64,000 nt of DNA from Escherichia phage slur09, in sequence record NC_028840.1; one strand, given 5' to 3'. The notes beneath the pieces were generated by a model. That model was given only the letters and a program-made list of their open reading frames with translations. It had not been told where the DNA came from and searched no databases. Positions 54,817 to 56,700 of this stretch are shown one piece after another. Numbering within the stretch: the stretch's first letter is position 1; each line of letters opens with the position of its first letter. Position numbers and translations under genes: made by a program.

Positions 54817-54845
54817 TTGCTTGATGCTTAATTTCTTGTTATAAT
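54817..54845 (+). promoter_or_regulatory. T5-type promoter driving a 1.2-kb ORF-free tRNA/ncRNA transcript
   Basis: TTGCTT-N17-TATAAT; no ORF of 60 aa or more until 56023. Confidence 0.6.
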
Positions 54846-55083
54846 ATTTATATAAATTGATGAGGAGAAATCCTCATCATAGTTCACTAAGGTATTAGCT
54901 CGACCTAGGACTGGCTGCCAAAAAGCACGATCCCTTCTACTTGGGAGGAGTTCTAGATTAGTCCACTAGATTCAGTGGCAACTGAGTAGTGTATCGGGTT
55001 TGCGAGATGACGTAGTTCCTTCCGCTCGAAGCGAAGGTGCTGTAGTTACGCCGAGCTAATAGCCTTAGTAAACTAAAGAATTT

Positions 55084-55167: not shown

Positions 55168-55244
55168 GCGTGATTGATGGAATTGGCATACATACCGTCC
55201 TTAGAAGTCGGGTTTTGAGGGTTCGAATCCCTTGTCACGCACCA
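55168..55244 (+). tRNA. tRNA with Leu anticodon TAG on a short-variable-arm (type I) scaffold
   Basis: Acceptor GCGTGAT/GTCACGC, A73, D-loop AATTGGCAT, anticodon arm CCGTC-CTTAGAA-GTCGG (one U-U), T-arm GAGGG-TTCGAAT-CCCTT; paralogous to the tRNA at 49680. Confidence 0.6.
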
Positions 55245-55356
55245 AATTTGATGGTCAGAGTAAATTAAACCTACTATCTCGGTTGAGCTGTTTTAATGGG
55301 TTCGAATCCCAGCGAGGCGTAACTGCCTGGTGTGATAGAGGCATCATCTTATTATT

Positions 55357-55447
55357 GGAAGAGCAAATCGAATTGGCGACGAAAACCGCTTGGAAAGTGG
55401 CTGACTGGTAAAACGGCTTGAGAGTTCAAATCTCTCCTCTTCCGCCA
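55357..55447 (+). tRNA. tRNA-Ser (anticodon GGA), long variable arm
   Basis: Acceptor GGAAGAG/CTCTTCC, G73, anticodon arm CCGC-TTGGAAA-GTGG, long variable arm, T-arm GAGAG-TTCAAAT-CTCTC, encoded CCA. Confidence 0.65.
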
Positions 55448-55459
55448 AACAATTTATAT

Positions 55460-55554
55460 GGTAGGTCAATCCAATGGCTGGCGCTGGACTCCGACTTGAA
55501 ATCGGTTGATCGTAGTGATACGGTGTAAGGGTTCGATCCCCTTACCTACCTCCA
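55460..55554 (+). tRNA. tRNA-Ser (anticodon TGA), long variable arm
   Basis: Acceptor GGTAGGT/ACCTACC, anticodon arm CCGA-CTTGAAA-TCGG, long variable arm, T-arm AAGGG-TTCGATC-CCCTT, encoded CCA. Confidence 0.65.
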
Positions 55555-55559
55555 AGTCT

Positions 55560-55691
55560 TGAAGTATGCCGGAATCGGTAGACGGGGCTGCCTAAAAGGT
55601 TTACAGGGAACATCCACTCCTTGCAACATACCTCATAAAGCGGCTGAGATAAATGGTCTATCTCGTGAAGGTTCAAGTCCTTCTGCTTCTT
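55560..55691 (+). ncRNA. tRNA-like RNA (about 132 nt): type II-like scaffold with a roughly 48-nt insertion in the anticodon arm
   Basis: Acceptor TGAAGTA/TGCTTCT (6 of 7 pairs, U1-U72), D-arm CCG-GAATCGGTAGA-CGG, anticodon-type stem GCTGC/GCGGC enclosing 55592-55639, variable hairpin GAGATA/TATCTC, T-arm GAAGG-TTCAAGT-CCTTC; no CCA. Confidence 0.35.
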
Positions 55692-55802
55692 GATACATCT
55701 ATGGCTCAAAGTGTAACGGTGCTATTTGATGCTCTTAGTAAGACTTTCCCGACATGCGTTCGGGAGTAAGCTGCTAAGGCTAGAGTAGAAGAGTTTCTGA
55801 GA

Positions 55803-55925
55803 GCCGCCACAATTGAAAATTCGTACTCGTCTTGAGCTGCGTGCAATAGGAGATAACTTGATTAGTATTCTAGAACATGCTAATTGAGGATGGTTTCGCT
55901 AACCCTGCGAGTTTTCAATTGTGGC
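55803..55925 (+). repeat. 14-bp perfect inverted repeat (GCCACAATTGAAAA / TTTTCAATTGTGGC, extendable to about 18 bp with one mismatch) flanking a 95-bp core; 3' arm overlaps the 5' end of tRNA-His
   Basis: Arms at 55803-55816 and 55912-55925 are exact reverse complements. Confidence 0.55.
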
Positions 55926-56616: not shown

Positions 56617-56624
56617 AATAATAA

Positions 56625-56700
56625 GCGGTTAAGCACACGGGTTGTGTCGCAGGCCTTCCAAGCCTCGCTGAGTAGGGTTCGATTCCCTCTAGCCGCTCCA
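56625..56700 (+). tRNA. tRNA-Gly (anticodon TCC)
   Basis: Acceptor GCGGTTA/TAGCCGC, D-arm CACA/TGTG, anticodon arm AGGC-CTTCCAA-GCCT, T-loop TTCGATT, encoded CCA. Confidence 0.7.

What the first reader, a model, noticed from the sequence alone, without database searches (positions are those of the whole stretch)
55245..55356. Orphan T-arm without a matching acceptor stem
A canonical T-arm (ATGGG-TTCGAAT-CCCAG at about 55296-55312) lies between tRNA-Leu(TAG) and tRNA-Ser(GGA), but no 5' acceptor strand complementary to the 3' flank was found. It is either a degenerate tRNA remnant or part of another non-canonical RNA.
Basis: seen in the sequence. Interest (0 to 1): 0.35.

Follow-up and report, generated by a model that had tools for sequence, protein, structure and literature searches.

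The report
Circularly permuted tRNA-like RNA in T5-like phages
The "orphan T-arm" belongs to a conserved, unannotated 107-base RNA fold in the tRNA cluster of T5-like phages: a tRNA look-alike whose acceptor stem is closed by a loop and whose ends lie where the anticodon loop would be, so it is neither a broken tRNA nor a real one.

Summary
A canonical T-loop sits at 55297-55311, and no tRNA is found there even with relaxed ARAGORN or the Rfam models. The window is a T5-like phage (Tequintavirus).

The 107-nt stretch 55245-55351 is a discrete cassette. About 240 phage genomes in at least five Demerecviridae genera carry it, always directly after the CCA of a tRNA. It is absent from T5 itself, where an HNH endonuclease gene fills the slot, and from bacterial genomes.

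Four sequence lineages share one fold:
- A 4-bp T-stem abuts a 7-bp hairpin. The strand complementary to the acceptor 3' strand lies downstream, not upstream.
- A 2-nt linker follows.
- A long-range 8-9-bp helix H, extended by a 5-bp helix P1, closes the molecule.

Across H, the T arm and the hairpin, all 19 pairs stay paired in every variant, and 7 show compensatory double changes. The element is as conserved between genera (72.6%) as the neighbouring tRNA-Ser (70.8%).

I read it as a selected, circularly permuted, D-armless tRNA mimic released by processing of the tRNA operon. Its topology resembles the tRNA-like module of bacterial YrlA Y RNAs, but it lacks their D arm and Ro-binding motif. 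Its function is unknown and only inferred. Curated BF23 and phage 5 records and Rfam do not list it.

The parts
54817..54845 (+). Likely promoter of the transcription unit: TTGCTT, 17-nt spacer, TATAAT. It corresponds to P13b of BF23 and phage 5.
   Evidence: Read from the sequence. It matches the T5 promoter consensus quoted in the AKFV33 record and the position of promoter P13b upstream of RNA 2H in the curated records. The simple sigma-70 scan did not flag it.
55168..55244 (+). Upstream tRNA-Leu(TAG). Its encoded CCA (55242-55244) directly abuts the element.
   Evidence: ARAGORN and Rfam tRNA at 47.5 bits. In other phages, three different tRNA-Leu(TAG) sequences or a tRNA-Ala precede the same element.
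55245..55351 (+). The whole conserved element, 107 nt. Homology among the four lineages starts right after the tRNA CCA and ends at CATCATCTTA.
   Evidence: Covariance model R1 scores 132 bits here and finds only one copy in the window.
55249..55253 (+). P1 5' strand (TGATG), pairing with 55342-55346.
   Evidence: Predicted by RNAalifold. It is invariant except for one U-A to U.G change in Pectobacterium phage DU_PP_V. This is the weakest helix, with no compensatory change.
55254..55269 (+). 5'-side internal loop between P1 and H (GTCAGAGTAAATTAAA). It is 10 nt long in the other three lineages.
   Evidence: Alignment A3. A possible CAG/CTG pairing with 55288-55290 shows no covariation, is broken in this lineage, and would cross helix H.
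55270..55278 (+). Helix H 5' strand (CCT[A]CTATC, with A55273 bulged), pairing with 55334-55341.
   Evidence: MFE folds of lineages B, C and D form this helix unaided. Of its 9 pairs, 100% of cells are paired, 4 have changes on both sides and 2 have wobble changes.
55279..55296 (+). Junction J1 from H to the T arm. It contains the invariant CTGTTTTAA (55288-55296) and an invariant GG (55281-55282).
   Evidence: Invariant columns in A3 and A4. GTTTT plus the T arm resembles the variable loop plus T arm of the phage's own tRNA-Leu genes.
55297..55311 (+). T arm: stem 55297-300 with 55308-311, loop TTCGAAT.
   Evidence: The stem varies TGGG/CCCA, CAGG/CCTG and CGGG/CCCG among lineages. Two pairs are compensatory and 100% of cells are paired.
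55312..55331 (+). Closed acceptor-like hairpin (AS). Strand GCGAGGC is 55312-18, the loop GTAACT is 55319-24, and strand GCCTGGT is 55325-31. It has 7 stacked positions, including a conserved G.G mismatch (55314/55329).
   Evidence: It follows the T stem with no spacer, as the acceptor 3' strand does in a tRNA. Changes seen are A-U to G-C (compensatory), G.U to G-C and G-C to G.U, with 100% of cells paired. Loop length and sequence vary, 6-8 nt.
55332..55333 (+). Two-nucleotide linker (GT) between AS and helix H, in the place of tRNA positions 8-9.
   Evidence: Alignment A4 with the structure.
55334..55341 (+). Helix H 3' strand (GATAG AGG).
   Evidence: A single-nucleotide variant in L009 (GATAG to GGTAG) keeps the pair as G.U.
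55342..55346 (+). P1 3' strand (CATCA), contiguous with the H 3' strand.
55347..55356 (+). 3' tail and leader of the next tRNA (TCTTATTATT). Only TCTTA is shared by all lineages.
   Evidence: Two metagenome contigs diverge immediately after CATCAT.
55357..55447 (+). Downstream tRNA-Ser(GGA). Cleavage at its 5' end by RNase P would define the element's 3' end.
   Evidence: ARAGORN finds it only at an 85% threshold. It is annotated tRNAS2 in the curated BF23 and phage 5 records.

Best explanation
Window 55245-55351 (+ strand) encodes a small structured RNA under selection: a circularly permuted, D-armless tRNA mimic.

Shown:
- A canonical T arm stacks directly on a 7-bp acceptor-like stem that is closed by a 6-8-nt loop instead of ending in free 5' and 3' ends.
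- A 2-nt linker, in the place of tRNA positions 8-9, leads into a long helix (H, 8-9 bp, plus P1, 5 bp). This helix takes the place of the D/anticodon arm.
- The RNA's own ends sit where the anticodon loop would be.

Inferred:
- It is transcribed from the P13b-type promoter at about 54.82 kb, within the unit RNA 2H, tRNA-Ala, tRNA-Leu, element, tRNA-Ser, tRNA-Ser.
- It is released as an RNA of about 107-112 nt. Maturation of the 3' end of tRNA-Leu would set its 5' end, and RNase P cleavage at the 5' end of tRNA-Ser would set its 3' end.
- It has no anticodon loop and no encoded CCA, so it cannot decode.
- It presents the T-loop elbow and a roughly 11-12-bp acceptor/T minihelix. Proteins that handle tRNA (TruB, TrmA, RNase P, the CCA-adding enzyme, or host factors that target tRNA) recognise that surface.
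- Its most likely role is a dispensable accessory tRNA mimic or decoy in the phage-host contest over tRNAs.

The confidence given applies to the identity and structure claims (a selected, permuted tRNA-like RNA). The decoy role on its own deserves about 0.2-0.3.
For: Structure:
- On 10 distinct variants from 4 lineages, H + T + AS make 19 pairs and 100% of cells are paired.
- Seven pairs show compensatory double changes; only 2 of 500 shuffles reach that number. Sliding the partners by 1-3 columns gives 32-47% paired and 0-2 such pairs.
- Helix H came from MFE folds of lineages B and C. It was then confirmed in lineages A and D, where 3 of its pairs differ on both sides.
- RNAalifold independently returns P1, T and AS.
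- G.U pairs (G55312.T55331, U.G in DU_PP_V) fit only the + strand.

Conservation:
- Identity between Tequintavirus and Sugarlandvirus is 72.6% for the element, 70.8% for tRNA-Ser and 56.8% for tRNA-Leu.
- 239 phage records cover at least 80% of the element.
- The records include Tequintavirus, Epseptimavirus phiR2-01, Sugarlandvirus, Hongcheonvirus DU_PP_V and Erwinia phage KEY.

Autonomy:
- The element has the same boundaries behind different tRNAs (three kinds of tRNA-Leu, or tRNA-Ala) and in front of different neighbours (tRNA-Ser or an ORF).

Not coding:
- The only ORFs present run across tRNA genes.

Precedent for the topology:
- The YrlA layout is V, T, closed acceptor-like stem, D, all inside a closing stem. 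M. smegmatis YrlA has a 7-bp acceptor-like stem, is cut by RNase P and receives CCA (PMC4201824).
Against: - There are no expression or end-mapping data for this RNA. T5, the best-studied member, lacks it.
- Only four independent lineages exist, so the number of independent compensatory events is small, roughly 7-9.
- The alignment used for helix H was made on sequences trimmed by hand so that the 5' strand came into register.
- P1 is essentially invariant and therefore untested by covariation.
- The single-sequence MFE of the window's own variant does not give the consensus fold, and its z-score is only -0.2 to -0.45. The proposed fold is 3.6 kcal/mol above the MFE.
- The element is dispensable. 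About a third of sampled relatives have 6-18 nt, an ORF or an HNH gene in its place.
- There is no D-loop partner for the T-loop, so an L-shape is inferred rather than shown.
- Any decoy or mimic function is pure inference.
Confidence: 0.65

Rival explanations
1. It is a cis-acting structured spacer. The fold exists but works only within the precursor, for example as an entry or ordering platform for RNase P or RNase E, or as a protective cap that improves maturation of the flanking tRNAs. It would not be a trans-acting RNA.
For: - It always lies directly after a tRNA CCA, and its single-stranded AU-rich tails (AAUU, UCUUA) are invariant.
- It sits inside a densely packed tRNA operon with no terminator before it.
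Against: - The same tRNA-Leu and tRNA-Ser pair is joined by only 6 or 18 nt in relatives (L047, L072), so the spacer is not needed for processing.
- The element also occurs behind tRNA-Ala and in front of an ORF, so it is not tied to particular tRNAs.
- A canonical T-loop and a stem kept at exactly 7 positions are more than a spacer needs.
Confidence: 0.15
2. It is a non-functional remnant: two tandem copies of one tRNA that lost their outer halves, leaving a 3' half, a short spacer and a 5' half. The helices would exist by descent only.
For: - The permuted order is what such a deletion would leave.
- The T arm is identical over 15 nt to that of the phage tRNA-Lys, and GTTTT plus the T arm resembles the phage tRNA-Leu genes.
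- The region is a hotspot of cassette exchange and HNH endonuclease insertion.
Against: - Seven compensatory pairs and no disruptive substitution in 19 pairs across genera.
- Conservation equals that of a functional tRNA.
- No parental tRNA matches beyond the T arm.
- No D arm is left.
- The 9-nt single-stranded CTGTTTTAA is invariant.
Confidence: 0.1
3. It is a true YrlA-type Y RNA that recruits the host Ro60 orthologue (Rsr) of Salmonella or Klebsiella.
For: - The order of modules matches: T arm, closed acceptor-like stem, closing helix formed by the two ends.
- YrlA RNAs are known in phages (PMC4201824).
Against: - There is no GNCGAAN0-1G motif and no D stem-loop.
- The closing helix is short and has no Ro-type bulged helix.
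- No Rfam family matches at E<=10.
- The element also occurs in phages of E. coli K-12. That this host lacks rsr is my own knowledge and was not tested here.
Confidence: 0.05
4. It is a DNA-level or coding feature: a homing-endonuclease target or recombination site, or part of a small protein gene, as some genome records annotate.
For: - T5 carries an HNH endonuclease gene exactly at this slot.
- Some records place 'hypothetical protein' over the element.
Against: - Compensatory changes and strand-specific G.U pairs point to RNA.
- The only ORFs read through tRNA genes, and no start codon is conserved.
Confidence: 0.03

Closest known systems
tRNA-like module of YrlA-class bacterial Y RNAs (Chen et al. 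2014, PMC4201824)
   Same: - Both have a circularly permuted tRNA topology: a T arm with a canonical T-loop, followed by an acceptor-like stem closed by a loop. The whole is enclosed by a helix made of the RNA's 5' and 3' ends, which takes the place of the anticodon stem.
- M. smegmatis YrlA also has a 7-bp acceptor-like stem.
   Different: - No D stem-loop; a 2-nt linker stands in its place.
- No GNCGAAN0-1G or Ro-binding module.
- No neighbouring rsr gene seen.
- No covariance-model match.
- It sits inside a phage tRNA operon directly after a tRNA.
RNA1, RNA2 and RNA3, the 'tRNA-like RNAs with unknown functions' of T5, BF23 and phage 5 (curated records NC_042564, AJ604531, AY692264)
   Same: - They lie in the same tRNA gene region of the same phages.
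- They have T-arm-like hairpins.
- They are co-transcribed with tRNAs.
- Their function is unknown.
   Different: - Those RNAs close their acceptor stem with their own 5' and 3' ends, the normal topology; this one is permuted.
- There is no sequence or model similarity: R1 and R2 find one copy only.
- This interval is left unannotated in all three curated records.
tRNA-like domain of tmRNA, especially circularly permuted (two-piece) tmRNA genes
   Same: - T arm plus acceptor stem, with a long helix in place of the anticodon arm and no true D stem.
- In permuted genes the acceptor 3' strand is encoded upstream of the 5' strand.
   Different: - No tag reading frame, no pseudoknots and no G3.U70 (pair 3-70 is C-G).
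- No CCA.
- ARAGORN's tmRNA search is negative.
- The element is only 107 nt long.
D-armless mitochondrial tRNAs and circularly permuted tRNA genes of red algae (my knowledge, not tested here)
   Same: - A short linker between the acceptor stem and an extended 'anticodon' helix.
- The 3' half is encoded before the 5' half.
   Different: - Those mature into decoding tRNAs with an anticodon loop and CCA.
- Here there is no anticodon loop and no evidence of circularisation.

Membership tests
Canonical tRNA (Rfam RF00005 / ARAGORN) | T arm with a GTTCRANYC-type loop | tested here: met
   GGG-TTCGAAT-CCC at 55298-55310, identical to four tRNA T arms in the window. The stem covaries.
Canonical tRNA (Rfam RF00005 / ARAGORN) | Acceptor stem formed by the 5' and 3' ends, followed by an encoded CCA as in all neighbouring phage tRNAs | tested here: not met
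   The strand complementary to 55312-18 lies downstream at 55325-31. The stem is closed by the loop GTAACT and there is no CCA.
Canonical tRNA (Rfam RF00005 / ARAGORN) | D arm, and anticodon arm with a 7-nt loop | tested here: not met
   A 2-nt linker stands in place of the D arm, and the closing helix is open-ended. Artificial re-permutation with a 7-nt loop is not called at ARAGORN's default threshold; at relaxed thresholds it is called only in other registers.
Canonical tRNA (Rfam RF00005 / ARAGORN) | Detection by tRNA finders or the covariance model | tested here: not met
   No call by ARAGORN at its default, 85% or 80% thresholds. No Rfam tRNA-clan hit at E<=10.
YrlA-class bacterial Y RNA | Module order: T stem-loop, closed acceptor-like stem-loop, enclosing stem formed by the RNA ends | tested here: met
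   T arm 55297-311, AS 55312-31, enclosing H + P1. YrlA layout taken from PMC4201824.
YrlA-class bacterial Y RNA | Nearly invariant D stem-loop | tested here: not met
   Only GT lies between AS and helix H.
YrlA-class bacterial Y RNA | GNCGAAN0-1G motif near the 5' end (presumed Rsr contact) | tested here: not met
   A regular-expression search of all four lineages found none.
YrlA-class bacterial Y RNA | Encoded next to a Ro60/TROVE (rsr) gene | not tested
   The neighbours seen are tRNAs, small ORFs and an HNH gene. The whole genome was not scanned for a TROVE domain.
tmRNA (standard or permuted) | Tag reading frame, alanine identity pair G3.U70, and detection by ARAGORN | tested here: not met
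   ARAGORN reports no tmRNA. Pair 3-70 is C-G. No ORF is present.
Decayed tRNA pseudogene | Neutral evolution: substitutions that break stems, and lower conservation than functional neighbours | tested here: not met
   None of the 185 cells in the 19 pairs is unpaired, and 7 pairs are compensatory. Identity is 72.6% against 70.8% for tRNA-Ser.

The most novel reading that the evidence does not exclude
As in M. smegmatis YrlA, host RNase P cuts the loop of the 7-bp acceptor-like hairpin. That would turn the element into a two-piece tRNA-like molecule, held together by about 21 base pairs, with a free acceptor 3' end that receives CCA.

This anticodon-less pseudo-tRNA would then act as a decoy or sponge for host immune effectors that attack the tRNA elbow or acceptor end, or would be charged for a use outside the ribosome. 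It would be the first phage-encoded permuted or split tRNA mimic with an anti-defence role.
Probability: 0.12. Interest if true: 0.85.

Novelty: new variant of a known kind. Interest (0 to 1): 0.6.

Why it matters
T5-like phages are model systems, and their tRNA clusters are now known to counter host defences that cleave tRNA. The BF23 paper read here cites work showing that T5 tRNA-Tyr rescues toxicity of the Eco7 retron. The titles returned report that a T5 tRNA neutralises PARIS.

This would add a covariation-supported RNA family to that cluster. About 240 sequenced phages carry it, including the classic phage BF23. Neither the hand-curated records nor Rfam lists it.

It would also extend the YrlA-type permuted tRNA mimic beyond Ro60-associated RNAs. 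That suggests the elbow-plus-minihelix surface of tRNA can be used on its own.

The element is a clean presence/absence cassette among near-identical phages. Natural isogenic comparisons are therefore available to test its function.

Tried and rejected
- **Canonical or relaxed tRNA search.** ARAGORN at default, 95, 90, 85 and 80% thresholds, in mitochondrial mode and with introns, found nothing credible in the native element.
- **Rfam.** Searches at E<=1 and E<=10 gave only chance-level snoRNA and plastid fragments.
- **First structural model.** I first treated 55256-55290 as a long variable arm (P2, CAG/CTG) and GAGG as a D-loop mimic. I rejected this because P2 is broken in this lineage and never covaries, while the GG is paired within helix H.
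- **Artificial re-permutation into a linear tRNA.** ARAGORN does not call it at its default threshold; at relaxed thresholds it calls it only in other registers.
- **Search for a parental tRNA.** Among 293 phage tRNAs, only generic T-arm similarity appeared.
- **Pattern scans for distant relatives.**
  - The metagenome scan returned only the same lineages.
  - The scan of 185,579 species genomes gave 5 GC-rich partial matches that the model rejects as full-length.
  - There is no match in 5,426 complete E. coli genomes.
- **Models R1 and R2 on related loci that lack the element.** No diverged copies were found.
- **Literature.** Six full-text searches (one further call failed on a too-short term) found no paper describing this element or permuted tRNA-like RNAs in phages.
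- **Coding potential.** No plausible ORF was found.

Full report
**What the window is.** The region around the finding is 96-98% identical to many T5-like phages (Tequintavirus, Demerecviridae). The finding lies in their well-known tRNA gene region.

- ARAGORN tRNAs between 45.4 and 58.2 kb, all on the + strand.
- Rfam adds a few more.

**Checking the observation.** ATGGG-TTCGAAT-CCCAG is at 55296-55312, as reported.

- The 13-mer GGGTTCGAATCCC occurs five times in the window, against zero expected. The other four copies are T arms of called tRNAs.
- The interval 55245-55356 lies between tRNA-Leu(TAG), 55168-55244, and tRNA-Ser(GGA), 55357-55447.
- Default ARAGORN misses that Ser tRNA and the next one, tRNA-Ser(TGA) at 55460-55554. 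They appear at relaxed thresholds of 85% and 95% respectively. Nothing appears in the spacer even then.
- Nothing appears in the native element at 80% either.
- No Rfam family, including the tRNA clan, matches at E<=10 on the 141-nt stretch.

**It is a discrete, conserved cassette.** BLAST with the spacer alone finds 250 phage records, and 239 of them cover at least 80% of it.

Carriers:
- many Tequintavirus genomes, including BF23 and Salmonella phage 5;
- Yersinia phage phiR2-01, an Epseptimavirus;
- Klebsiella Sugarlandvirus phages, about 73-75% identical;
- Pectobacterium phage DU_PP_V, a Hongcheonvirus;
- Erwinia phage KEY.

Boundaries:
- Homology always begins right after the CCA of a tRNA.
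- That tRNA is one of three quite different tRNA-Leu(TAG) sequences, or tRNA-Ala in KEY.
- Homology ends at CATCATCTTA, whatever follows: tRNA-Ser, an ORF or unrelated sequence.

Presence and absence:
- The slot is polymorphic. Of about 30 IMG/VR relatives with enough flank, 19 carry the element.
- Others have 6 or 18 nt between tRNA-Leu and tRNA-Ser, or a small ORF.
- T5 itself has the HNH endonuclease gene T5p062 at this slot.
- A pattern scan of 185,579 species-representative bacterial and archaeal genomes gave only partial GC-rich chance matches.
- 5,426 complete E. coli genomes have no match.

**Structure.** Comparison between genera shows compensatory changes.

- *T arm.* The stem reads TGGG/CCCA here, CAGG/CCTG in the Klebsiella and Erwinia phages, and CGGG/CCCG in the Pectobacterium phage.
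- *Acceptor-like hairpin (AS).*
  - With no spacer after the T stem comes GCGAGGC (55312-18). It pairs with GCCTGGT 6 nt downstream (55325-31), not with anything upstream.
  - Changes seen are A-U to G-C, G.U to G-C and G-C to G.U.
  - A G.G mismatch is conserved, and the loop varies from 6 to 8 nt.
- *Helix H.*
  - MFE folds of the Klebsiella and Pectobacterium variants revealed a long-range helix.
  - In the window it pairs 55270-72 and 55274-78 (CCT[A]CTATC) with 55334-41 (GATAG AGG).
  - It encloses an 18-nt junction, the T arm and AS.
- *Covariation count.*
  - On an alignment of 10 distinct variants, H + T + AS make 19 pairs and 100% of cells are paired.
  - Seven pairs have changes on both sides; only 2 of 500 shuffles reach that number.
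  - Controls with partners slid by 1-3 columns give 32-47% paired and 0-2 such pairs.
  - Helix H alone has 4 compensatory pairs out of 9.
- *Helix P1.* A further 5-bp helix (55249-53 with 55342-46) continues H. RNAalifold predicts it, but it is invariant apart from one wobble change, so it is less certain.
- *Discarded idea.* My earlier 'variable arm' (CAG/CTG) is not supported.
- *Energetics.* MFE folds of three of the four lineages recover H, T and AS unaided. The proposed fold (P1+H+T+AS) is 3.6 kcal/mol above the MFE for the window's own variant and 3.8-10 kcal/mol for the other three, whose MFE replaces P1 with another closing helix.
- *Strand.* G.U pairs fit only the + strand.

**What the fold is.** Read from the closed hairpin outward, the order is:

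1. acceptor 5' strand, 7 nt;
2. a 2-nt linker, in the place of positions 8-9;
3. one long helix, H + P1, in place of the D and anticodon arms;
4. the RNA's own ends, where the anticodon loop would be;
5. the return strand of that helix;
6. an 18-nt 'variable' junction containing an invariant CUGUUUUAA;
7. the T arm;
8. the acceptor 3' strand.

This is a circularly permuted, D-armless tRNA-like fold. Its T stem plus acceptor-like stem form a continuous stack of 11-12 bp, the length of a tRNA minihelix. It has no anticodon loop, and no CCA although every neighbouring tRNA gene encodes one. It therefore cannot decode.

**Selection or remnant.** The permuted order could arise from two tandem tRNA copies that lost their outer halves. 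Part of the junction plus the T arm does resemble the phage's own tRNA-Leu genes. A neutral remnant, however, would not:
- keep 19 of 19 pairs through at least seven double substitutions;
- keep a 9-nt single-stranded block invariant;
- stay as similar between genera (72.6%) as the functional tRNA-Ser next to it (70.8%; tRNA-Leu 56.8%).

There is no plausible ORF.

**How it probably works (inferred).**

- A T5-type promoter, TTGCTT-N17-TATAAT at 54817-54845, is the P13b of the curated records. It precedes RNA 2H, tRNA-Ala, tRNA-Leu, the element and the two tRNA-Ser genes. No terminator-like site lies before the element.
- Maturation of the 3' end of tRNA-Leu and RNase P cleavage at the 5' end of tRNA-Ser would release an RNA of about 107-112 nt. 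The invariant AU-rich tails fit such processing.
- The exposed surface is the T-loop elbow plus the acceptor/T minihelix, the part of tRNA read by TruB, TrmA, RNase P, the CCA-adding enzyme and several tRNA-directed toxins.
- I therefore favour an accessory tRNA mimic or decoy. I stress that no data here bear on function.
- The element is dispensable, because many relatives lack it.

**Comparison with known RNAs.**

- *YrlA.*
  - The closest in topology is the tRNA-like module of YrlA-class bacterial Y RNAs: a variable stem-loop, the T arm, a closed acceptor-like stem and the D arm, all inside a stem made of the RNA ends.
  - M. smegmatis YrlA has a 7-bp acceptor-like stem, is cut there by RNase P and receives CCA (PMC4201824).
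  - Membership fails. There is no D stem-loop, no GNCGAAN0-1G motif, no covariance-model match and no rsr context seen.
- *T5-group RNAs.*
  - The hand-curated BF23, phage 5 and T5 records annotate the 'tRNA-like RNAs with unknown functions' RNA1-3 and the stable RNAs I, III, IV, 2H and X.
  - They leave this 112-nt interval blank.
  - Those tRNA-like RNAs have ordinary end-to-end acceptor stems and do not match my models.
- *tmRNA, including permuted genes.* It shares the idea of a T arm plus acceptor with a long helix, but there is no tag frame, no G3.U70 and no ARAGORN call.
- *Literature.* Full-text searches found no description of the element.

**Verdict.**

- 'Degenerate remnant' is unlikely, and 'part of a non-canonical RNA' is right.
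- The element is best described as a new family of phage tRNA-like RNA with a YrlA-like permuted topology, restricted so far to Demerecviridae and of unknown function.
- Caveats: four lineages only, one alignment trimmed by hand, no expression data, and P1 and the three-dimensional shape are inferred.

Noticed in passing
window 55357-55447 and 55460-55554: Default ARAGORN misses both tRNA-Ser genes downstream of the element, (GGA) and (TGA). They appear only at 85% and 95% thresholds. Rfam lists the second only under the tRNA-Sec model (37.6 bits) and does not list the first at E<=1. Both have unusual D-arm regions. The curated BF23 record notes that Ser2 with a CUA anticodon does not become a suppressor.
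   Followed up: partly
window 55168-55244; L013-L015, L008/L024, L003-L006: The tRNA-Leu(TAG) here is 77 nt long with a short variable loop, unlike ordinary long-arm bacterial tRNA-Leu. T5 and other relatives carry 81-87-nt forms at the same position. At least three unrelated-looking tRNA-Leu(TAG) sequences precede the identical element in different phages, which suggests cassette-like replacement of individual tRNA genes.
   Followed up: partly
L027 3026-3610 (T5 st0 AY692264, T5p062); L065: In T5 itself, an HNH endonuclease gene occupies exactly the slot held by the element in BF23-like phages. Other relatives have 6-18 nt or a small ORF there. The slot is a hotspot of exchange, perhaps driven by homing endonucleases.
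   Followed up: partly
window ~54893-55064, ~55559-55700, ~55703-55809, 55814-55919: These unannotated gaps correspond to the stable RNAs of the T5 group: RNA 2H, RNA1 (tRNA-like), RNA I and RNA III (an exact match). With introns allowed, ARAGORN calls RNA1 a 'tRNA-Phe(aaa) with intron' at 55560-55691. All are of unknown function.
   Followed up: partly
window ~52517, ~53384, ~53527: By seed matches, these are counterparts of BF23 RNA3 (74 nt, tRNA-like, ends in ACCA), RNA2 (125 nt, tRNA-like with a TTCGAAT T arm) and RNA IV.
   Followed up: no
window 44817-44888, 49097-49171, 56624-56697: The Rfam tRNA or tRNA-Sec models score 35.5, 40.3 and 30.9 bits at three places where ARAGORN calls nothing. 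The last lines up with the tRNA-Gly annotated after the two tRNA-Gln genes in T5-like records.
   Followed up: no
L035 and L036 (metagenome contigs): Two contigs carry the element but diverge from all others immediately after CATCAT, the 3' strand of P1. This marks a recombination breakpoint exactly at the end of the fold.
   Followed up: no
L031 ~826-974 (Erwinia phage KEY); L068, L070, L073 after tRNA-Leu: A small conserved ORF family (for example MTSTIYLAKNLNTGKLVFIEAGEKYDQ...) follows the element in KEY. In Epseptimavirus-like contigs that lack the element, it follows tRNA-Leu directly. The KEY record's CDS key_099 appears to start inside the RNA element.
   Followed up: no
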